Assembly: GCA_047972065.1 (NCBI GenBank)
Contig: JBKEAH010000033.1
Location: 403 to 64,402 of the forward strand
DNA from: Desertimonas sp.
Lineage (GTDB): Bacteria; Actinomycetota; Acidimicrobiia; Acidimicrobiales; Ilumatobacteraceae
Direction of reading: 5' to 3'
Length of the DNA stretch: 64,000 nt
Program-made: the position numbers and the translations under genes
Part shown: positions 21,664 to 60,897 of the stretch, piece after piece
How positions within the stretch are numbered: the stretch's first letter is position 1
Layout: each line of letters opens with the position of its first letter
Notes under the pieces: generated by a model
The model's input: only the letters and a program-made list of their open reading frames with translations
Database searches by the model: none
What the model was told of the DNA's origin: nothing

Positions 21664-22098
21664 GTGCTGGCCATCTTCAACTACTCCACCGCCTACGAGG
21701 TGCTCGGCGTCCTCCACGTGCTCGCCGCCATCGTCGCGTTCGGACCGCTCTTCCTGTATCCCGCGCTCCAGCGCAACGGTGAGACCCGCACCATCGCCAA
21801 GATGCACATGATGCTGGCGTTGCCGGCGATGGTGCTGGTCTGGGTGTTCGGCATGGGGCTCGTCGGCATGGCCGACGACACGAAGGGCCCGGCCATCGAG
21901 ATGTCCGAGCCGTGGATCGTCGTGTCACTCGCCGGTTGGGTCGTGGCGATGGTGGTCAGCTGGTTCATGATCCGTCCCGCGCTGGCCGACACCGGCGAGG
22001 CGGCACGCAGCCGCATGGCCGCCGGGATCGGGATCAGCCACCTGATCCTCGTGGTCGCCCTGATCATGATGATCTTCAAGCCCGGCGGGAACTTCTAG
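21664..22098 (+). CDS. hypothetical integral membrane protein (about 4 TM)
   Basis: 144 aa from GTG 21664, with four hydrophobic segments and GC3-rich codons. No family assigned. Confidence 0.55.
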   Translation: MLAIFNYSTAYEVLGVLHVLAAIVAFGPLFLYPALQRNGETRTIAKMHMMLALPAMVLVWVFGMGLVGMADDTKGPAIEMSEPWIVVSLAGWVVAMVVSWFMIRPALADTGEAARSRMAAGIGISHLILVVALIMMIFKPGGNF

Positions 22099-22213
22099 AC
22101 GCCCTCATCCCGGTCGAGCCGGCCGACCGCACCGTCGGTTCCACGACGCCCAGCTTGATCGGCGCCGCCGGGTGCGTCGCGACGCGAGTCGCGTCCTGCG
22201 GCACTCGGGTGGT

Positions 22214-23458
22214 TCAGAGACCCGGGTGACCGACCGCGGCGTAGATCGCGTCGACGATCGACTGGCCGCGCTCGTTGAGCAGGATGCCGGGGCCCATCCG
22301 GTTCATCGAATAGCCGACGGCGAGGCCATGAGCGGGATCGGCGAACCCGATGCTGCCGCCGGCGCCGACGTGGCCGAAGGCGTGCTCGCCGAGCACGACC
22401 GAGTCGGCGCCGGGCACCCGCCGGTTGTCCATGCTGACCATGAACCCGAGGGCGAAACGGGTGGGGATGCACAGCGTGGCGTCGCGATTGGTCGCCGTCG
22501 ACACCCGGCGCATCCGGTCGACGGCGCCGCTCGACACCAGGCCGTCGCCACCCAGCGACAGCGGCCGGTACATCCCGGCCAGGCCACGCCCGTTGCTGAT
22601 CCCGCCGCCACCGCCGATCTCGGCGGCGTGGGCGGCGCGGCTGTTGGGGTCGAAGTTGGCGAGGTTGGACAGCGACAGCGACGAGATCGACCGGCGGTCG
22701 CCGACGACGGCGAGCTCGAAGTCGCTGAGCGGCTCGCCCTTGGAGCGGGCGTAGGGGATCATCGGCGCCACCCGCGGCTCGACGGCTTCGGGGAGCCCGA
22801 TCCAGAAGTCGATACCCAACGGGTCGGCGATGGCCTCGGCGAAGAAGGCACCGAGCGACGAGCCGGACGCCCGGCGGACCAGCTCACCTACCGTCCAGCC
22901 GAAGTTGATCATGTGGTAGCCGTTGCGGATGCCGGGATCCCAGAATGGTGGCTCGGCCTCCAACCGGGCGACCATGCGGTCCCAGTCGTAGACCTCGCCC
23001 GGCCCGAGCGGCTCCCGGAACACCGGAACCCCGACCGAGTGGTCGAGCATCATCCGCACGGTCGCGTCGGCCTTGGCGCCCTCGGCGCCGGCCGCGAACT
23101 CGGGCCACACCTCGGCGACGGGCCCGTCGAGGTCGAGCCGACCGCGGTCGGCGAGCACGTGAGCGCACAAGGCGGTGGCCCCCTTGGTGCAGCTGTAGAC
23201 CACCGACACGGTGTCTGACTCCCAGGGCGTGGCGGTCTGCGGGTCGGCGCTGCCGCCCCAGACGTCGACGACGGTGCGCCCCTCGTGGATGACCGTCAGC
23301 GAGGCACCGACCTCGCCGTGACGCTCGAAGTTGGTGGTGAAGGCCTCGACGGCACCGGCGAACGCGGCGTCGTAGCTCCCGGCCAGGGCGCCGGTGGGCG
23401 CGTCGTGGGACAGCGTCTGGTCGATGGCTGCGACGGTAGGTGACCGTCGACGATCGAT
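22214..23458 (-). CDS. beta-lactamase-family serine hydrolase (esterase/PBP-like); 5' end unresolved
   Basis: SxxK active site SCTKG lies 5 residues after the first canonical start (GTG 23209). The conserved N-terminal region (AFAGAVEAFTTNFERHGEVGASLTVIHEGRTVVDVWGGSAD) continues in frame upstream, with no ATG/GTG/TTG. Confidence 0.7.
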   Translation of the reverse strand: MDRRRSPTVAAIDQTLSHDAPTGALAGSYDAAFAGAVEAFTTNFERHGEVGASLTVIHEGRTVVDVWGGSADPQTATPWESDTVSVVYSCTKGATALCAHVLADRGRLDLDGPVAEVWPEFAAGAEGAKADATVRMMLDHSVGVPVFREPLGPGEVYDWDRMVARLEAEPPFWDPGIRNGYHMINFGWTVGELVRRASGSSLGAFFAEAIADPLGIDFWIGLPEAVEPRVAPMIPYARSKGEPLSDFELAVVGDRRSISSLSLSNLANFDPNSRAAHAAEIGGGGGISNGRGLAGMYRPLSLGGDGLVSSGAVDRMRRVSTATNRDATLCIPTRFALGFMVSMDNRRVPGADSVVLGEHAFGHVGAGGSIGFADPAHGLAVGYSMNRMGPGILLNERGQSIVDAIYAAVGHPGL

Positions 23459-23474
23459 GTGAGTCGTGAGGACG

Positions 23475-23858
23475 TCAGTCGTGGGTGTGAACGCTGGGGA
23501 GCCCCAGACGGGCGATGGTCGTCGATTCGAAGTCGACCTCGACCAGCACCGCCGGCTCGTCGCCGACGACCCAGGCGTCGTGACCGGGTGCCACCTCGAC
23601 CACCGCCGGCGCCTCGAACTCGACGATGCACCCGTCGTCGAACTCGAAGTGGAGGCTGCCCTCGGTGAGGAACCCGGCGTGGGCGTGCTCGCAGCGTTCC
23701 GTGCCGACCAACGGTTTGAGATCCACCGACCAGCGCATGCCAGGCGGGTACACCATCCGTTTCATCCGTGCATCACCGACCGGGCCGACATCGATCTCGA
23801 CCGGCCCGAACGTCACGTGCGTGGCCCCGCTGACGGGGCCCGCGATCCCCTCGCTCAT
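23475..23858 (-). CDS. cupin domain protein
   Basis: 127 aa from ATG 23858. HAHAGFLTEGSLHFEFDDG...VVEVAPGHDAWVVGDEP is a cupin-like beta-barrel signature. Confidence 0.65.
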   Translation of the reverse strand: MSEGIAGPVSGATHVTFGPVEIDVGPVGDARMKRMVYPPGMRWSVDLKPLVGTERCEHAHAGFLTEGSLHFEFDDGCIVEFEAPAVVEVAPGHDAWVVGDEPAVLVEVDFESTTIARLGLPSVHTHD

Positions 23859-23965
23859 CCACGGTACGGTACCCGTCCCTCGGGCGCGGGCTGGCACGGC
23901 ACGCACGCGGGTGGGTACCGTGTACCCACCCGTCGACCGGGACGGGGCCGAGGAGGGGGACGTCG

Positions 23966-25495
23966 ATGACCGACGAGTATGTGGACGTAGCCGTGATCGG
24001 TGCCGGGATCTCCGGTATCGGTGCGGCGTATCACCTGCGCACGATGTCTCCCGATCGGAGCTTCACGCTGATCGAAGCACGCCACGACATCGGGGGAACG
24101 TGGGACCTGTTCCGCTACCCCGGGGTGCGCAGCGACAGCGACATGCACACGCTCGGCTACCGCTTCAAGCCGTGGACCTCGGCCAAGGCGATCGCCGACG
24201 GCCCCTCGATCATGCGCTATCTGCGTGAGACCGTCGCCGAACACGACATCGAGCGGCACATCCGCTTTGGTCACCGGCTCCGCCACGCCGCCTGGGACAC
24301 CGACACGTCGACGTGGACGTTGACCATCGAGCGAACCGACCCCGACACCGGGGCGACCGGGACGACGTCGCTGCGCTGCAACTACCTGTTCATGTGCGCC
24401 GGCTACTACAGCTACGCACGACCCCACGACGCTCAGATCCCCGGCCTCGCCGAGTTCGGCGGCACCGTCGTGCACCCGCAGTTCTGGCCGGAAGATCTCG
24501 ACTACACCGGCAAGCGGGTCGTCGTGATCGGCTCCGGAGCGACCGCCATGACCATCGTCCCGGCGATGGCCGCCGACGCGGCGCGGGTGACGATGCTGCA
24601 GCGCTCGCCGACCTACGTGGTCGCCCGCCCCGGCGAGGACGCGATCGCCAACACCTTGCGCAAGTACCTCCCCGACCGTCTGGCCTATCGCATCACCCGG
24701 AAGAAGAACACGACGCTCCAACAGCTGTTCTACGGCCGGGCGCGCAAGAAGCCCGACGAGGTGAAGGCAAAGCTGTTGGCGATGACCGCCAAGGCACTGC
24801 CCGACGTGGATGTCGACACCCACTTCACGCCGACCTACAACCCCTGGGACCAGCGGCTGTGCCTGATCCCCGACGGCGACCTCTATGACGCGATCAACGC
24901 CGGCAAGGCCGACGTCGTCACCGACACCATCGACACCGTGACCGCCGACGGGATCCGGTTGAGCTCGGGGCGAACCCTCGACGCCGACATCATCGTCACC
25001 GCGACCGGGCTCCGGATGGTGACCCTCGGCGAGGCCGACGTCACCGTCGACGGCGAACCCATCGACTTCGGTCAGACCTGGACGTACAAGGGCCTCGCCT
25101 ACTCCGGGGTCCCCAACCTGGCCACCTGCTTCGGCTACATCAACGCCTCCTGGACGCTGCGCGCCGATCTGACCTCGGAGTACGTGTGCCGGCTGCTCAA
25201 CCACATGGCCGAGACCGGCACGACCCAGTGCACCCCGCAGCTACGACCCGGCGACCACGACATGCCGGCTCGACCGTTCATCGAGAACTTCAGCTCGGGC
25301 TACATGCAGCGAACGATGCACGAGATGCCCAAGCAGGGCGACCGCGAGCCGTGGCTGAACCCCCAGAGCTACGCCCGCGACCGCAAGATGTTCCGCAAGG
25401 GGCCGATCGACGACGGGGTGATGCGCTTCACCCGACCCGTTCCCGACGATGCCCGACCGCCCGGTGACCGGGTGGTCCCCGTCGCCGGCGAGTAG
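23966..25495 (+). CDS. flavin-dependent (Baeyer-Villiger / EthA-like) monooxygenase
   Basis: FAD site VAVIGAGISGIGAAYHL, BVMO fingerprint FGGTVVHPQFWP, and a second dinucleotide site VVVIGSGATAMT. Confidence 0.85.
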   Translation: MTDEYVDVAVIGAGISGIGAAYHLRTMSPDRSFTLIEARHDIGGTWDLFRYPGVRSDSDMHTLGYRFKPWTSAKAIADGPSIMRYLRETVAEHDIERHIRFGHRLRHAAWDTDTSTWTLTIERTDPDTGATGTTSLRCNYLFMCAGYYSYARPHDAQIPGLAEFGGTVVHPQFWPEDLDYTGKRVVVIGSGATAMTIVPAMAADAARVTMLQRSPTYVVARPGEDAIANTLRKYLPDRLAYRITRKKNTTLQQLFYGRARKKPDEVKAKLLAMTAKALPDVDVDTHFTPTYNPWDQRLCLIPDGDLYDAINAGKADVVTDTIDTVTADGIRLSSGRTLDADIIVTATGLRMVTLGEADVTVDGEPIDFGQTWTYKGLAYSGVPNLATCFGYINASWTLRADLTSEYVCRLLNHMAETGTTQCTPQLRPGDHDMPARPFIENFSSGYMQRTMHEMPKQGDREPWLNPQSYARDRKMFRKGPIDDGVMRFTRPVPDDARPPGDRVVPVAGE

Positions 25496-25520
25496 CCGGG
25501 CTGGCGCGTCTCAGCCCGGC
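25495..25520. terminator. hairpin between convergent monooxygenase and sulfatase genes
   Basis: GCCGGGCTG-N8-CAGCCCGGC is a perfect 9-bp stem spanning both stop codons. Confidence 0.5.
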
Positions 25521-27139
25521 GCGACCGGGGCGCCGCGAGCGGCGTCGGAGGACTCGACCAGGGCACCAGCGAGCCGATCCACGGCGTCGGCCCGGCGGCC
25601 CGGGGAGTCGGTGCTCAGATCGTGGGCTTCGAGCGGGTCGGCGACCAGGTCGAACAGCAGATCCTCGCCGGAGGACCAGCGGGTGTACTTCAACCCGTCG
25701 GCGCCGACCAGCGTGCGCGAGCGCGCCGGGATGTGACCGGCCGCCGCGATCGCGTCGGCGACATCGTCTTCGATCAGCAACCACTCGTGTCCGGATGTCT
25801 CGGATCCCTCCAACAGCGGCATCAGCGATCGGCCCTGCATCCCGACGTGCTCGGGGAGGCCGGCGGCGTCGAGCAAGGTCTGCGCGAGGTCGATCGTGCC
25901 GACCAACGCCGAGGACCGGCCGGTGAGGACACCGGGCCCGGCCATCACCAGCGGCACCGCCTGGGTGCCGCGGTAGGGCATGAACCCCTTCAGCAACAGG
26001 CCGTGCTCGCCCATCATGTCGCCGTGGTCGCTGGTGAACACCACGATCGTGTCGTCGGTCTGGCCGAGCTCGTCGACCGCGGCGAGGATCGAACCGACCG
26101 CGTCGTCGATCATCTCGATGGTGCCGTAGTTGGCGGCCAGGCACTCCTGGACCAGCACGGGGTCGTCTCCGGCACCGGTCACACCGACCCAGCCGCGCTG
26201 TTGCGCCGGCGAGGTGGCACGGACCCGACGAAGGTACGCCGGGGCGCTCGCCAACGGGTCGCCGAGCGTGACCGGGAGCGGCATGTCCTCGGGTCGGTGA
26301 CGGTGATACCACTCCCCCGGCGGGGTGAAGGGATGGTGGGGGTCGGGGAACGATGCCATCGCCAGCCACGGCGACGATTCGCCGGCGGCCTGGCGCACGA
26401 ACCGGATCGTCTCGTCACGCACGAACGACGTCGAGTGCAGCTCGGGGTCGTAGGGCGGCTGATACACCTGCCACCAGCGCCCGGAACGCTCCAGCGCCGG
26501 CGCCTCGATCGAGTAGGGCACCAGGACGTCCTCGAGGCGCGCCCCGCGATCGAGGGCCCAGCGGAGATGGTGGCCCGACATCCGAGCACCGTGATCGATG
26601 GCCAGACGGATCGTGTCGAAGCCGTAGAAGTCCTCGGGGTCTTCGGGCCACCGATCGACGTAGCGCTCAAAGTCCTCGACCTCGTCCCAGCCCGTCGGCC
26701 ACGGGTCGGCGACCACCGGCTCGGCGTGCTCGGGGAACACGGCGTTGCGGCTCATCCCGTGTTGCAGGTGCGACTTGCCCAGCAGCCCGGTCCGCCAACC
26801 GGCTGAACGGAACGCCCGCACGAAGGTGGCCGCACCCCACTCCAACGAGCGGTCGTTGAAGATCACCCCGTGCGCCGAGGGCATCCGGCCGGTCATGATC
26901 GTCGAGCGGTTGGGCATGCACACCGGGTTGGCGACCCAGGCGTTGTCGAACACCGTGCCGCGCGCGGCCAGCGCATCGAGGTGCGGCGTGCGCACCACAG
27001 CGTTGCCGGCGAACCCGGCGTGATCGGCCCGCTGCTGATCGGTGACGATCAACAAGATGTTCGGACGAGCCCCGACGGCGCGTCCCATGACGTCGTTCAC
27101 GGCGCGGACCGTACTCGGGCCGGCCGACCGATCGATCAC
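25511..27139 (-). CDS. Cys-type sulfatase (arylsulfatase family)
   Basis: PNILLIVTDQQRADH, then the formylglycine motif CMPNRSTIMTGR (CxPxR). No obvious signal peptide. Confidence 0.85.
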   Translation of the reverse strand: MIDRSAGPSTVRAVNDVMGRAVGARPNILLIVTDQQRADHAGFAGNAVVRTPHLDALAARGTVFDNAWVANPVCMPNRSTIMTGRMPSAHGVIFNDRSLEWGAATFVRAFRSAGWRTGLLGKSHLQHGMSRNAVFPEHAEPVVADPWPTGWDEVEDFERYVDRWPEDPEDFYGFDTIRLAIDHGARMSGHHLRWALDRGARLEDVLVPYSIEAPALERSGRWWQVYQPPYDPELHSTSFVRDETIRFVRQAAGESSPWLAMASFPDPHHPFTPPGEWYHRHRPEDMPLPVTLGDPLASAPAYLRRVRATSPAQQRGWVGVTGAGDDPVLVQECLAANYGTIEMIDDAVGSILAAVDELGQTDDTIVVFTSDHGDMMGEHGLLLKGFMPYRGTQAVPLVMAGPGVLTGRSSALVGTIDLAQTLLDAAGLPEHVGMQGRSLMPLLEGSETSGHEWLLIEDDVADAIAAAGHIPARSRTLVGADGLKYTRWSSGEDLLFDLVADPLEAHDLSTDSPGRRADAVDRLAGALVESSDAARGAPVAPG

Positions 27140-27201
27140 CCCGCAGCCGCCCAGGAGCAGCCCGGCGCCGGGTCGGCACCGGACCCGACATCACGTCACG
27201 C

Positions 27202-27729
27202 TCAGCCGCTGGCGCGCTCGATGGCCGCCGCGATCGACGGACCGTCGGCACGGCCGGTGAGCCGTTCGGTGCTGCCATCGGCGGCGACGATCACGGCCGC
27301 CGGTTGGGCCAGCACGTCGAATCGGGCGAACACCTCGCCGGCTTCGTCGTCGATCTGCGGGAAGGTCAGCTGGTGGCGTTCGATGAAGTCGAGGAACTCA
27401 TCGGTGTTGCCGGACCAGGCGACGCCGACGACGTTGACCTCGTCACCCAAGCGTTCGGCGACCGCCTCGACCGAGGCGGCTTCGGCGTTGCAGGTGGCTC
27501 AATACGGCGCCCAGAACCAGAAGACGACGGGCTCACCGGCGTAGGCCCGGAGATCGAAGTCGGTGCCGTCGACCAATGGCGCGCTGAAGTCCAACACCGG
27601 AGGCACCGTCACTGCGCCGGACGCTGCACCGGGTGCACTTGCGACACCGGACGTCGTCTCCTGGCCGTCGCTCCCGCCGCAGGCCATGAGCGTGACGACC
27701 AGCCCCACGATCATCGACACACGCGGCAC
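27202..27729 (-). CDS. thioredoxin-fold TlpA/ResA-like lipoprotein with in-frame TGA (candidate selenoprotein, UxxC)
   Basis: Track ORFs 27499..27729 and 27202..27450 share one frame and are joined by TGA 27499-27501 plus 16 sense codons. The lipobox is LMAC. Read through, the product is VVFWFWAPY-U-ATCNAEA... with the redoxin fold continuing downstream. Confidence 0.6.
27460..27480 (-). promoter_or_regulatory. SECIS-like hairpin downstream of the in-frame UGA
   Basis: The mRNA can form GCCGCCUC-GGUC-GAGGCGGU, an 8-bp stem including one G-U pair, with a loop starting GG. The stem begins 18 nt after the UGA, so the apical loop starts 26 nt after it. Confidence 0.45.
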
Positions 27730-27791
27730 GGGCAGAGCGTAGTCCTGGCCCGGCTACCTTCAATGAGGCCACCGAGCCGAGGAGGACCGCG

Positions 27792-28025
27792 ATGGCCATC
27801 AAGGACGATGACGGGGTCAGCAGCACCATCACCCCGCGCCGCGACGGTCCACTGGTGGTCGAGGGACGAGTGTCGTTGGTTGGTGCCGACGGCACCGAGG
27901 AGACCCACGAGCGCCTCTTCCTCTGCCGCTGCGGCGCATCGGGAAACAAGCCGATGTGCGACGGCACCCACAAGCGGATCGGGTTCGAGGCCTCCGGCGT
28001 CGCTCCACCACCGCGTTCGACCTGA
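27792..28025 (+). CDS. CDGSH iron-sulfur domain protein
   Basis: A perfect CDGSH signature CRCGASGNKPMCDGTH (C-x-C-x2-S-x3-P-x-C-D-G-T-H). Strong SD GAGGAGGA lies 5 nt upstream. Confidence 0.85.
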   Translation: MAIKDDDGVSSTITPRRDGPLVVEGRVSLVGADGTEETHERLFLCRCGASGNKPMCDGTHKRIGFEASGVAPPPRST

Positions 28026-28061
28026 TCGAGGGGGTGACACCCCCGTGCGCATGATGGCGCG

Positions 28062-28508
28062 ATGACCGCCACCGTGATCCGCTTTCCCGTCGAGCGACGC
28101 ACGCCGTCCCCGGCGGCGGCGCCGACCGACGGGGTCGAGCAGGCCCACGCCGTGCTCGACGCCGCAGCGCGGTGGATCGAGCACGAGCCCGCCGAGGTAA
28201 TCGTGCTCTGCCAGCGTGGCTTCGAGATGTTGACCGCGGCCGGGCCCGACATCGACGACGACGCATCCCTCCACCTGGTCGCCGCCCGTCTGGGTGAGCT
28301 GCACCGACAGGCGGCCACGGCCATCGGCGCCGACACCGGCGAGGTGACCACCCGGCTGGGCAACGGCTGGCGGCGCTGCCCAACCCTCACCCGCCACTTC
28401 GTCCAGGGTGCCGAGCACCCGGCCGGGCCCGGTCGTTCGATCAGCGCCGCGGTGGCGGCCGCCCGGCGACGACATCCGACTGCCGGCTTCCCACGCCAGA
28501 TCGGCTGA
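28062..28508 (+). CDS. hypothetical protein
   Basis: 148-aa ORF with GC3-rich codons, convergent with recA. No recognisable domain. Confidence 0.5.
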   Translation: MTATVIRFPVERRTPSPAAAPTDGVEQAHAVLDAAARWIEHEPAEVIVLCQRGFEMLTAAGPDIDDDASLHLVAARLGELHRQAATAIGADTGEVTTRLGNGWRRCPTLTRHFVQGAEHPAGPGRSISAAVAAARRRHPTAGFPRQIG

Positions 28509-28534
28509 GCCGCGCCGGGCCCGGCGGCCGTCGG

Positions 28535-58650: not shown

Positions 58651-59385
58651 TCAAGGATACGGGAGGGTCGGGAACTCTTCCAACAGTCGCTCGTCCTGCG
58701 CGCTGAGCCCGCCGCGGGCTTCGATGAGGTCGGGACGCACGGCGAGCGTGCGATGCAACGCCTGGGCCTGGCGCCACCGTTCGATGCGGGCGTGATCACC
58801 GCTGCGCAACACCTCGGGCACCCGCCAGCCGCGAAAGTCCGCCGGCCGGGTGAACTGGGGCTCTTCGAGCAACCCGCGGCGGCCAAAGCTCTCGGTGATC
58901 GGGCTGTCGGCATTGCCCATCGCGCCGGGCAGCAGGCGGGTCACGGCCTCGATCACCAGACACGCGGCGACCTCGCCTCCCGACAGCACCACGTCTCCGA
59001 CGCTCAGCTCGCCATCGACGAGGTGCTCTCGGACCCGGTGGTCGACGCCCTCGTAGCGGCCGCAGAGCAGGCTGAACCCGGCCCCGTCGGCAAGCTGCTG
59101 CGCCACCGTCTGGTCAAAACGTCTCCCCCCGGGACCGAGCAGGTACAGCGGTCGCGGCGGGTTGGCGGCGTCGACGGCGGCGAACAACGGCTCGGGTCGC
59201 ATCAGCATCCCGGCGCCACCGCCGAAGGGTGCGTCGTCGACGGTCCGGTGAACATCGGTGGTGTGCTCACGAGGGTCGTGGGTGCGCAGATCGACCAGCC
59301 CCGCGGTCCGGGCCTTGCCCAGCAGGCTCGCCGAGCAGAAGTCCTCGACCAGGGCCGGGAACACGGTGAACACGTCGATCCGCAC
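58651..59385 (-). CDS. trmD: tRNA (guanine37-N1)-methyltransferase
   Basis: MRIDVFTVFPALV...DDAPFGGGAGMLM...LLCGRYEGVDHRV. Confidence 0.93.
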   Translation of the reverse strand: MRIDVFTVFPALVEDFCSASLLGKARTAGLVDLRTHDPREHTTDVHRTVDDAPFGGGAGMLMRPEPLFAAVDAANPPRPLYLLGPGGRRFDQTVAQQLADGAGFSLLCGRYEGVDHRVREHLVDGELSVGDVVLSGGEVAACLVIEAVTRLLPGAMGNADSPITESFGRRGLLEEPQFTRPADFRGWRVPEVLRSGDHARIERWRQAQALHRTLAVRPDLIEARGGLSAQDERLLEEFPTLPYP

Positions 59386-60585: not shown

Positions 60586-60897
60586 TCACCGCGCACCCGC
60601 CGCCGGCGAGCCGTCGTCACTCACCTCGACGCCCCGCCAGAACGCGATGCGGTCCGCGATCTGGTGGGCCGCCTCCTTCGGCTCGGGGTAGAACCAGGCG
60701 GCGTCGGTGTTGACCTCCCCACCTACCGTCACCGAGTGGTAGGACGCTGTCCCCTTCCAGGGACACACCGTGGTGGTTGCGCTGGCGGACAGGACATCGG
60801 GCCGCACCGCCCGGCGCGGGAAGTAGTGGTTGCCCTCGACCACGACGGTGTCGTCGGATCGAGCGATCTCCTCGCCGTTCCATCGTGCGGTGACCAT
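60586..60897 (-). CDS. DUF427 domain protein
   Basis: VVVEGNHYFPRRAV...TVCPWKGTASYHSV...AAWFYPEP is the DUF427 signature. Confidence 0.75.
   Translation of the reverse strand: MVTARWNGEEIARSDDTVVVEGNHYFPRRAVRPDVLSASATTTVCPWKGTASYHSVTVGGEVNTDAAWFYPEPKEAAHQIADRIAFWRGVEVSDDGSPAAGAR

What the first reader, a model, noticed from the sequence alone, without database searches (positions are those of the whole stretch)
27202..27729. In-frame TGA at the first-Cys position of a thioredoxin-fold CXXC motif, with a SECIS-like hairpin: candidate UxxC selenoprotein lipoprotein
Two minus-strand track ORFs (27499..27729 and 27202..27450) are in the same frame. Only one TGA (27499-27501) and 16 sense codons separate them.

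Read through, the product is a 175-residue TlpA/ResA-like redoxin. It has a lipoprotein signal (...VVTLMAC|GGS), then VVFWFWAPY-[TGA]-ATCNAEAASVEAVAERLGDEVNVVGVAW...QPAAVIVAADG. The TGA aligns exactly with the nucleophilic Cys of the canonical W-C-x-x-C motif, giving U-A-T-C. The helix that normally follows CXXC is intact after the TGA, so this does not look like a genuine terminator.

Eighteen nt after the UGA the mRNA can fold into GCCGCCUC-GGUC-GAGGCGGU. The loop begins GG and starts 26 nt after the UGA. This is the geometry used by bacterial SECIS elements.

Sec-containing thioredoxin-fold proteins are known in other phyla. A lipoprotein version in this kind of genome would still need the full Sec-decoding machinery, none of which is in this window.
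Basis: partly seen in the sequence, partly recalled or inferred. Interest (0 to 1): 0.8.

Follow-up and report, generated by a model that had tools for sequence, protein, structure and literature searches.

The report
Selenocysteine redoxin lipoprotein gene, mis-split
[quoted passage not shown] The selenocysteine is encoded by a TGA that an RNA hairpin just downstream recodes. This is a real but unsurprising member of a known class, and public annotation routinely cuts genes of this family in two.

Summary
It is one minus-strand gene, 27729..27202, of 175 codons. It has a lipoprotein signal, an in-frame TGA at 27501..27499 in the first-Cys position of WFWAP-x-[C]-x-x-C-N, and an 8-bp hairpin with a GGUC loop at 27480..27461.

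- The same TGA occurs in about 200 fetched loci (159 unique sequences, 31-60% protein identity to the window). These are Acidimicrobiia and Nitriliruptoria genomes and metagenomes.
- The ORF after the TGA is intact, and codon-position diversity is the same before and after the TGA.
- TGA is also the usual terminator of these genes, so the recoding is local, not a changed genetic code.
- The hairpin meets all four published bacterial SECIS criteria.
- It covaries at synonymous sites (61 double changes against 14 in shuffles).
- It is missing from Cys-form homologues.

Not shown: selA, selB, selC and selD in this genome. None is in the window. The evidence here is published only: Ilumatobacter isolates have SelA, SelB and SelD and 10-15 selenoprotein genes.

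UxxC thioredoxin-fold selenoproteins have been catalogued since 2005, so this is a new member of a known kind.

The parts
27202..27729 (-). Complete selenoprotein gene of 175 codons: GTG start at 27729..27727, Sec-TGA at 27501..27499, terminator TGA at 27204..27202.
   Evidence: sequence and translation. (Pfam AhpC-TSA 2.5e-16, Redoxin 1.3e-11). (the ORF after the TGA is conserved in about 200 loci, with a coding-type substitution pattern).
27679..27729 (-). Signal peptide with lipobox: MPRVSMIVGLVVTLMA|C, lipidated Cys17 codon at 27681..27679.
   Evidence: A lipobox-like [LVI..][AST..][GAS]C is present in the N-terminal part of 139 of 165 unique homologues. No dedicated signal-peptide predictor was available.
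27241..27612 (-). Thioredoxin-fold (DsbE/DsbF/TlpA-like) domain, residues 40-163.
   Evidence: aligned over residues 40-163 to M. tuberculosis DsbF (3IOS, E = 5.9e-22) and over 46-155 to DsbE/MPT53 (1LU4, E = 3.2e-20)..
27499..27501 (-). In-frame TGA read as selenocysteine (residue 77), the nucleophilic position of the U-A-T-C redox motif.
   Evidence: It aligns with Cys in A1 and in DsbF and DsbE. TGA is at this codon in 202 of 205 motif hits.
27490..27492 (-). TGC codon of the resolving Cys (residue 80) of UxxC.
   Evidence: It is invariant in A1. It is the only Cys of the mature domain in 186 of 191 homologues.
27461..27480 (-). Bacterial SECIS hairpin: 5' arm 27480..27473 (GCCGCCUC), loop 27472..27469 (GGUC), 3' arm 27468..27461 (GAGGCGGU).
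   Evidence: -15.5 kcal/mol, z = -3.88. (conserved and covarying). (loop codons TCG and GTC in 96 of 96). (absent from Cys forms). (consensus criteria).

Best explanation
Window 27729..27202 (minus strand) is a single gene for a 175-residue, lipid-anchored, extracytoplasmic thiol:disulfide oxidoreductase of the actinobacterial DsbE/DsbF (TlpA/ResA-like) type. In it the N-terminal nucleophilic Cys of CxxC is selenocysteine (U-A-T-C).

Proposed mechanism:
1. During translation the ribosome reaches UGA (27501..27499).
2. The hairpin 18 nt downstream has an 8-bp stem and a GGUC tetraloop. It acts as a bacterial SECIS and recruits SelB-GTP-Sec-tRNA(Sec), so Sec is inserted instead of termination.
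3. Translation continues for 98 codons to an ordinary TGA stop that has no such hairpin.
4. The product is exported, lipidated at Cys17, and works through a selenenylsulfide/selenol-thiol couple with Cys80 on exported protein thiols or disulfides.

What is shown here by comparative data:
- the single reading frame
- the Cys/TGA correspondence
- purifying selection on both sides of the TGA
- the conserved, covarying hairpin

What is inferred:
- that the inserted residue is Sec
- that SelB binds the hairpin
- export and lipidation
- the redox role
For: (1) Cys/TGA pairing. The TGA aligns with the first Cys of WFWAPWCxxCN in full-length homologues and in DsbF and DsbE structures.

(2) The TGA is ancient, not a lesion.
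- 67 of the first 85 sequences held (84 loci plus the window) matched a strict motif, all with TGA.
Nearly all are Acidimicrobiia or Nitriliruptoria.
- With a looser motif, 202 of 205 hits are TGA.
- There are 167 unique mature domains, 31-60% identical to the window protein, median 50%.

(3) Translation continues past the TGA.
- The ORF after the TGA is 90-109 aa in 187 of 202 hits.
- Codon-position diversity is 0.24/0.22/0.42 after the TGA and 0.27/0.24/0.44 before it.

(4) The genetic code is not reassigned. The same genes terminate with TGA in 149 of 190 cases, including the window gene.

(5) SECIS.
- The hairpin meets all four published bSECIS criteria: loop 3-9 nt, stem 4-16 bp, a G in the first two loop positions, 16-37 nt spacing, and MFE <= -7.5 (criteria from PMC13188914; values).
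- 129 of 159 unique sequences keep at least 6 of 8 pairs with a GGUC loop.
- On 110 distinct sequences, 5 of 8 pairs change on both sides. There are 61 double-change cells against 14.2 +/- 2.7 in shuffles (0 of 500 shuffles reach that). Slid registers give 5-24.
- The most variable pair joins two synonymous third positions: C-G 76, U-A 16, U-G 5, A-U 4, G-C 4.
- The loop codons are always TCG and GTC (96 of 96). Elsewhere in these genes those codons make up 29% of Ser codons and 54% of Val codons.
- The E. coli fdhF SECIS has the same GGUC apical loop.

(6) Control. Five Cys-form genes show 2-6 of 8 pairs in this register and none forms the hairpin in its predicted fold.

(7) Lineage.
- The window's RecA is closest to Ilumatobacteraceae.
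- Ilumatobacter isolates are published as SelD+, SelA+, SelB+ with 10-15 selenoprotein genes.
- Another Acidimicrobiia order carries selA, selC and selD and a divergent selB.
Against: - No Sec-decoding component was seen in this genome. The window has only tRNA-His and tRNA-Lys, no Rfam hit beyond those, and no SelA, SelB or SelD by tblastn.
- None was found in 1.38 Mb of related loci either. That was expected, since each locus is only a short stretch around the redoxin gene.
- The window's own genome is not in the collections searched. Its Sec trait therefore rests on family-level inference and on a 2016 supplementary table.
- The sequences used for the covariation count were pre-selected for at least 6 pairs and a GGUC loop. 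This inflates the percentage paired, though not the double-change counts.
- In most relatives the middle pair of the stem is a mismatch.
- There is no experimental evidence of Se incorporation, export or lipidation.
- The physiological substrate is unknown. The neighbours (sulfatase, CDGSH protein, recA) are uninformative, and there are no cytochrome c maturation genes nearby.
Confidence: 0.88

Rival explanations
1. Recent nonsense mutation or pseudogene. A TGC-to-TGA change killed a Cys-type redoxin, and only the 76-aa stub, or nothing, is made.
For: Gene callers and NCBI annotation treat the locus and its homologues as two short ORFs. No Sec machinery is in the window.
Against: - TGA sits at the identical codon in about 200 loci that are only 31-60% identical at protein level.
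- The ORFs after the TGA are intact, with third-position-dominated divergence equal to that before the TGA.
- A conserved, covarying hairpin lies just downstream.
Confidence: 0.02
2. Hairpin-stimulated read-through or recoding of UGA with an amino acid other than Sec, for example Cys, Trp or Gly from a near-cognate or suppressor tRNA, without SelB.
For: The identity of the inserted residue is not shown by sequence alone. The Sec machinery was not observed in this genome.
Against: - The recoded site is exactly the redox-active Cys position, the hallmark of Sec/Cys pairs.
- The hairpin matches the SelB-type bSECIS model and shares the GGUC loop with E. coli fdhF.
- The lineage is published as having SelA, SelB and SelD.
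- TGA is the normal terminator of these genes.
Confidence: 0.06
3. Two separate polypeptides: an N-terminal 76-aa lipoprotein and an independently initiated C-terminal fragment that associate after translation.
For: In some homologues a GTG or ATG directly follows the TGA, and gene callers start a 96-99 aa ORF there.
Against: - The codon after the TGA is not a start codon in most sequences. It is usually AGC, ACG, GGC or CCG, and GCC in the window.
- In the window the first start codon is a TTG 16 codons downstream, which would delete the CxxC Cys and the first helix.
- A C-terminal fragment would have no signal peptide.
- The thioredoxin fold spans the TGA.
Confidence: 0.02
4. Sequencing or assembly error in this window at the TGA.
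For: None specific. Some related long-read contigs do carry homopolymer frameshifts (the second gene of L207).
Against: The same codon is found in independent assemblies from many projects and sequencing technologies.
Confidence: 0.01

Closest known systems
[quoted passage not shown]
   Same: The best Pfam domain is PF00578. There is a UxxC motif with Sec at the first Cys position, a SECIS directly downstream, and Cys-form homologues are widespread. By the field's naming scheme, which goes by domain plus motif, this gene falls under the first name.
   Different: - Homology to the catalogue's reference sequences (for example WP_010940744.1 and MGB1650493.1) could not be tested.
- This clade is specifically DsbE/DsbF-like, lipoprotein-anchored, and confined to Acidimicrobiia and Nitriliruptoria.
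- NCBI and JGI still annotate its members as truncated fragments.
Mycobacterium tuberculosis DsbF (Rv1677, PDB 3IOS) and DsbE/MPT53 (Rv2878c, PDB 1LU4)
   Same: These are the closest solved structures (E = 5.9e-22 and 3.2e-20). The WFWAPWCxxC active-site context is the same, and all are extracytoplasmic actinobacterial redoxins. That DsbF is a lipoprotein is from my own knowledge.
   Different: They have Cys, not Sec, at the nucleophilic position, and identity is only about 35-40%. Whether the window protein oxidises, reduces or isomerises is unknown.
E. coli fdhF SECIS (SelB-binding hairpin)
   Same: It lies in the coding sequence directly after the UGA. Its apical tetraloop, GGUC, is identical, and its spacing falls within the bSECIS window.
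   Different: The window hairpin is a simple, perfect 8-bp stem starting 18 nt after the UGA. In relatives the middle pair is often a mismatch. It lacks the long lower helix and the bulged-U architecture of fdhF. Binding by an actinobacterial SelB is untested.
NCBIfam NF041054 'ResA-like WAxxUGC motif-containing protein'
   Same: It is a ResA-like selenoprotein with a WA..U motif, and it gives a weak hit (E = 2.2e-9).
   Different: The score is 37 bits against a cut-off of 300. The motif is UGC rather than UxxC, and the model is 354 residues long. The window protein is not a member.

Membership tests
Bacterial selenoprotein gene (Sec-UGA plus bSECIS) | The in-frame UGA aligns with Cys in homologues (a Cys/Sec pair). 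| tested here: met
Bacterial selenoprotein gene (Sec-UGA plus bSECIS) | Sequence is conserved, and under purifying selection, on both sides of the UGA in the same frame. | tested here: met
   (intact ORFs after the TGA). (diversity at codon positions 1/2/3 is 0.27/0.24/0.44 before the TGA and 0.24/0.22/0.42 after it).
Bacterial selenoprotein gene (Sec-UGA plus bSECIS) | bSECIS consensus: 3-9 nt apical loop, 4-16 bp upper stem, a G in the first two loop positions, 16-37 nt between the UGA and the loop, MFE <= -7.5 kcal/mol. | tested here: met
   The loop is GGUC (4 nt), the stem is 8 bp, the spacing is 26 nt and the MFE is -15.5 kcal/mol. The criteria are from PMC13188914. The hairpin covaries.
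Bacterial selenoprotein gene (Sec-UGA plus bSECIS) | selA, selB, selD and tRNA-Sec are present in the same genome. | not testable with these tools
   Only 64 kb of this genome is available, and none of these genes is in it. The genome is not in the searchable collections. Indirect support: Ilumatobacter isolates are scored SelD+/SelA+/SelB+.
Bacterial selenoprotein gene (Sec-UGA plus bSECIS) | Selenium is incorporated at the UGA position. | not testable with these tools
   This needs 75Se labelling or mass spectrometry.
Thioredoxin-fold redoxin (Pfam AhpC-TSA / Redoxin; TlpA-DsbE-ResA-like) | The domain match is above Pfam's gathering score. | tested here: met
   AhpC-TSA 60.2 bits (cut-off 26), Redoxin 44.9 bits (26.6), Thioredoxin_8 28.8 bits (27).
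Thioredoxin-fold redoxin (Pfam AhpC-TSA / Redoxin; TlpA-DsbE-ResA-like) | A CxxC-type active site at the conserved W-C-x-x-C position. | tested here: met
   WFWAPY[U]ATCN aligns column for column with WFWAPWCPTCQ (DsbF) and WFWTPWCPFCN (DsbE).
Named equivalogs ResA, DsbE (CcmG), TlpA, StoA (NCBIfam) | The score is above the curated whole-protein cut-off. | tested here: not met
   ResA 48.8 bits against 170, dsbE 32.8 against 123, TlpA 27.4 against 230, StoA 40.7 against 210. It resembles these families but is not a member of any named equivalog.
'Prx-like thiol:disulfide oxidoreductase' selenoprotein family | A pfam00578 domain with a UxxC or UxxU motif. | tested here: met
   The definition is from PMC9312934 and PMC13188914.
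'Prx-like thiol:disulfide oxidoreductase' selenoprotein family | Direct homology to the family's reference sequence (WP_010940744.1). | not tested
   The reference sequence could not be retrieved with the tools.
Bacterial lipoprotein | An N-terminal signal peptide ending in a lipobox, [LVI][ASTVI][GAS]C. | tested here: inconclusive
   The window has R3, a hydrophobic core and LMAC. Met at position -2 is atypical. A loosened lipobox pattern matches 139 of 165 homologues. No SignalP- or LipoP-type predictor was available, and lipidation itself cannot be tested here.

The most novel reading that the evidence does not exclude
This could be a lineage-wide selenoprotein family that the catalogues do not yet list as such. 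It would be a Sec-containing, lipid-anchored DsbE/DsbF-type oxidoreductase acting outside the cytoplasm of aerobic aquatic Acidimicrobiia and Nitriliruptoria. It is present in more than 119 species-level genomes. It has two alternative SECIS designs within one family and frequent Cys/Sec tandem paralogues. Public annotation systematically splits it.
Probability: 0.3. Interest if true: 0.45.

Novelty: new member of a known kind. Interest (0 to 1): 0.3.

Why it matters
- It corrects the annotation. Two 'ORFs' in the window, and hundreds of 96-99 aa 'redoxin domain-containing protein' fragments in public databases, are halves of one selenoprotein gene.
- It gives a clean, covariation-supported SECIS model for Acidimicrobiia that could be used to find the rest of their selenoproteomes.
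- It points to an exported, selenium-dependent thiol-disulfide enzyme in abundant aerobic aquatic actinobacteria. This bears on selenium demand in those habitats and on why Sec is kept in extracytoplasmic, oxidising compartments.
- It does not change any concept. UxxC thioredoxin-fold selenoproteins and Sec use in Ilumatobacter are already published.

Tried and rejected
1. Looking for Sec machinery.
- tblastn with E. coli and Arthrobacter SelA, SelB and SelD against the window and all related loci fetched by then (203 loci, 1.38 Mb) found nothing.
- ARAGORN on the window and on the window plus 101 related loci found no tRNA-Sec. The positive control worked: tRNA-SeC was found in the Arthrobacter plasmid locus L087.
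- Rfam found only two ordinary tRNAs.

2. Fishing for an Ilumatobacteraceae SelA.
- E. coli SelA against plasmids gave an Arthrobacter selD/tRNA-Sec/selA/selB cluster.
- Using that SelA in the search for homologous proteins returned only Micrococcaceae.
- A representative-library search returned 150 unnamed SelA clusters.
- Looking up ten of them gave no lineage names beyond 'Actinomycetota bacterium'. This line was abandoned.

3. Identifying the source genome.
- An exact look-up of the window's RecA found nothing.
- megablast of the window against the loci gave no hit.
- RecA homologues gave only family-level placement.

4. Synteny with close relatives. L212 and L213 (RecA 97% identical) lack the whole 22086-28515 segment, so they offer no orthologue there.

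5. A scan of the window for other in-frame TGA genes found only gene junctions (a gene ahead of rpsP, and trmD ahead of rplS) and one antisense frame.

6. A strict scan of all loci for other TGA-plus-GGUC-hairpin genes found only this family.

7. My first hairpin register was off by 3 nt and was corrected.

8. Structure prediction was not run, because sequence homology to solved DsbF and DsbE structures already fixes the fold.

Full report
**Observation.**
A GTG-initiated ORF (27729..27499) encodes MPRVSMIVGLVVTLMACGGS...GEPVVFWFWAPY and stops at TGA 27501..27499. The same frame continues ATCNAEAASVEAVAERLGDEVNVVGVAW... to TGA 27204..27202. The second track ORF (27450..27202) begins at a TTG 16 codons after the TGA. 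Read through, the product has 175 residues. The hairpin GCCGCCUC-GGUC-GAGGCGGU lies at 27480..27461. It starts 18 nt after the UGA, and its loop starts 26 nt after it. On its own it folds at -15.5 kcal/mol (z = -3.88; 0 of 200 shuffles fold as well). The surrounding 91 nt are not unusually stable. The degenerate family pattern occurs once in the window, with none expected by chance.

**What the protein is.**
With Cys substituted for the TGA, the protein matches Pfam AhpC-TSA (2.5e-16), Redoxin, Thioredoxin_8 and Thioredoxin, all above their gathering scores. The closest solved structures are M. tuberculosis DsbF (3IOS, E = 5.9e-22, residues 40-163) and DsbE/MPT53 (1LU4, E = 3.2e-20). WFWAPY[TGA]ATCN aligns column for column with WFWAPWCPTCQ and WFWTPWCPFCN. 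No NCBIfam equivalog (ResA, DsbE, TlpA, StoA, WAxxUGC) reaches its cut-off. The N-terminus has a signal peptide ending in LMAC. A lipobox-like motif is present in 139 of 165 unique homologues. The mature domain contains a single Cys, the resolving Cys of UxxC, in 186 of 191.

**The TGA is conserved, not a lesion.**
- A protein search returned about 25 proteins of 96-99 aa that begin right after the stop position (M/V-T-C-N..., M-C-N...). It also returned six N-terminal fragments ending ...WFWAP[YWFT]. Full-length Cys forms have WAPWCxxCN.
- DNA of two such loci shows TGA.
- A metagenome scan gave 80 loci.
- Record titles are almost all Acidimicrobiia: Ilumatobacteraceae, Ilumatobacter, Acidimicrobiales, Ca. 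Microthrix, Ca. Poriferisodalis. Some are Nitriliruptoria: Egibacteraceae, Euzebya, Nitriliruptorales.
- Over all loci, 202 of 205 motif hits carry TGA. Two of the other three are real Cys forms and one is spurious.
- The ORF after the TGA is 90-109 aa in 187 hits.
- The genes end with TGA in 149 cases, TAG in 22 and TAA in 19. TGA is therefore the ordinary terminator in these organisms, and it ends the window gene too. Recoding is site-specific.
- The 167 unique mature domains are 31-60% identical to the window protein, median 50%.
- The closest relative, L211, is 68% identical in protein. It lies at the same recA-linked locus next to the same CDGSH gene, and it also has TGA and a full 8-pair hairpin.
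- Codon-position diversity is the same before the TGA (0.27/0.24/0.44) and after it (0.24/0.22/0.42). Both halves are translated in this frame.

**The hairpin behaves as a SECIS.**
- The published bacterial SECIS model asks for a 3-9 nt apical loop, a 4-16 bp upper stem, a G in the first two loop positions, 16-37 nt between the UGA and the loop, and MFE <= -7.5 kcal/mol (PMC13188914). The window element has a 4-nt GGUC loop, 8 bp, 26 nt spacing and -15.5 kcal/mol.
- Of 159 unique 54-mers, 129 keep the GGUC loop with at least 6 of 8 pairs. Over all 159, 20 have 8 pairs, 101 have 7 and 8 have 6.
- On 110 distinct sequences, five of eight pairs change on both sides. There are 61 double-change cells against 14.2 +/- 2.7 in column shuffles (0 of 500 reach that) and 5-24 in slid registers.
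- The most variable pair links two synonymous third-codon positions: C-G 76, U-A 16, U-G 5, A-U 4, G-C 4. Protein selection cannot explain this.
- Some lineages change the encoded peptide from S-V-E to A-V-A while keeping the pairing (U-A to G-C).
- The loop codons are TCG and GTC in 96 of 96 sequences, against 29% and 54% usage of those codons elsewhere in the same genes.
- Caveat: the 110 sequences were chosen for at least 6 pairs and a GGUC loop. The percentage paired is therefore biased upward. The double-change counts are not.
- Five Cys-form genes give 3, 6, 2, 3 and 4 of 8 pairs and none forms the hairpin in its predicted fold. One of them (L207) sits in the same gene order as the Sec forms L001 and L002.
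- The E. coli fdhF SECIS folds with the same GGUC apical loop.

**Sec machinery.**
This is the weak point. The window has only tRNA-His and tRNA-Lys, no further Rfam hit, and no SelA, SelB or SelD. None was found in the related loci either. The window's genome is not in the collections. Its RecA is 86-89% identical to named Ilumatobacteraceae, Ilumatobacter and Desertimonas proteins, and up to 97% identical to unnamed metagenomic ones. Published data fill the gap at genus level. Peng et al. 2016 (PMC5029168) list Ilumatobacter coccineus and I. nonamiensis as SelD+, SelA+, SelB+ with 15 and 10 selenoprotein genes, whereas most Actinobacteria have one. A 2026 preprint reports selA, selC and selD and a divergent selB in all Actinomarina genomes, which belong to another Acidimicrobiia order. 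Attempts to obtain an Ilumatobacteraceae SelA with the tools failed.

**Mechanism proposed.**
SelB-GTP-Sec-tRNA(Sec) binds the GGUC hairpin as the ribosome approaches the UGA. Sec is inserted at residue 77 and translation continues to the hairpin-less TGA at 27204..27202. The protein is then exported and lipidated at Cys17. It acts through a U77/C80 selenenylsulfide couple on extracytoplasmic protein thiols or disulfides, like DsbE/DsbF. Shown here are the single frame, the Cys/TGA pair, selection on both halves, and the conserved, covarying hairpin. Inferred are the Sec identity, SelB binding, export and lipidation, and the direction of the redox reaction. The neighbours give no clue to the substrate. 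They are an arylsulfatase, a divergently transcribed CDGSH iron-sulfur protein, recA, an FMO-like monooxygenase and a beta-lactamase-family protein. There are no cytochrome c maturation genes.

**Comparison with what is known.**
UxxC thioredoxin-fold selenoproteins were described in the Sargasso Sea analysis of 2005 ('Prx-like protein', 'Thiol-disulfide isomerase-like protein'). [quoted passage not shown] By the field's domain-plus-motif naming, this gene belongs to the first. I could not test direct homology to the reference sequences. Public annotation still splits the clade: NCBI names the C-terminal halves 'redoxin domain-containing protein', and one JGI call put Trp at the TGA.

**Verdict.**
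- The novelty rating is 'new member of a known kind'.
- Interest is modest (0.3). It is a real, mis-annotated selenoprotein with an unusually well-supported SECIS, but nothing in it would surprise a specialist.

Noticed in passing
L126, L129, L138, L170, L188, L193 (Nitriliruptoria) and about 20 Acidimicrobiia loci such as L095, L102, L174 and L179; positions +31..+49 after the TGA: 30 of 159 unique U-form sequences lack the +22..+41 GGUC hairpin. They have instead a 7-bp hairpin 8 nt further downstream with loop A-G-[G/U]-U-N. It covaries at 35-45 (C-G 16, A-U 12, U-A 2), at 33-47 and at 36-44. Often there is also a small hairpin at +15..+29. This looks like a second SECIS design within one protein family.
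   Followed up: partly
L207 3001-4057 and L208 309-1430 and beyond: A Cys-form redoxin gene is followed directly by a TGA-form paralogue in tandem. The L207 copy carries a 1-nt homopolymer frameshift, probably a long-read sequencing error.
   Followed up: partly
window 22086-28515: This segment holds a beta-lactamase-family gene, a 143-aa ORF, an FMO-like monooxygenase, a sulfatase, the Sec redoxin, a CDGSH protein and a 148-aa ORF. It lies between miaB and recA, and it is absent from the same position in two close relatives (L212 and L213, RecA 97% identical). L211 keeps recA, CDGSH and the redoxin but lacks the sulfatase and has an acyl-CoA dehydrogenase and an HxlR gene instead. The locus appears to be a flexible island.
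   Followed up: partly
window 27792-28025 (+): A 77-aa CDGSH-type iron-sulfur protein (Pfam zf-CDGSH, 9.9e-18) is transcribed divergently from the Sec redoxin. The pairing is kept in L211, where the CDGSH gene also carries a Fer4_19 domain.
   Followed up: no
P0003 (JGI), P0019, P0022 and P0028 (NCBI): Public gene calls for this family are wrong in two ways. NCBI names the 96-99 aa C-terminal halves 'redoxin domain-containing protein'. One JGI call reads the TGA as Trp (…FWFWAPTWSSCN…).
   Followed up: no
L120, L153, L156, L177: Four contigs that carry this Acidimicrobiia-type gene are titled 'uncultured Bifidobacterium sp.' in their records. This is probably a taxonomic mislabel of the MAGs.
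   Followed up: no
window 60586-60588 and 58651-58653 (-): Two in-frame TGA junctions with coding signal on both sides turned out to be ordinary gene boundaries. One is a small conserved protein followed by rpsP, and the other is trmD followed by rplS. They are not selenoprotein candidates.
   Followed up: yes
L087 7723-12054 (Arthrobacter sp. YA7-1 plasmid pYA7-1a): A conjugative plasmid carries a complete fdh, selD, tRNA-Sec, selA, selB cluster next to a Tn3 transposase. It is a mobile Sec-decoding trait in an actinobacterium.
   Followed up: no
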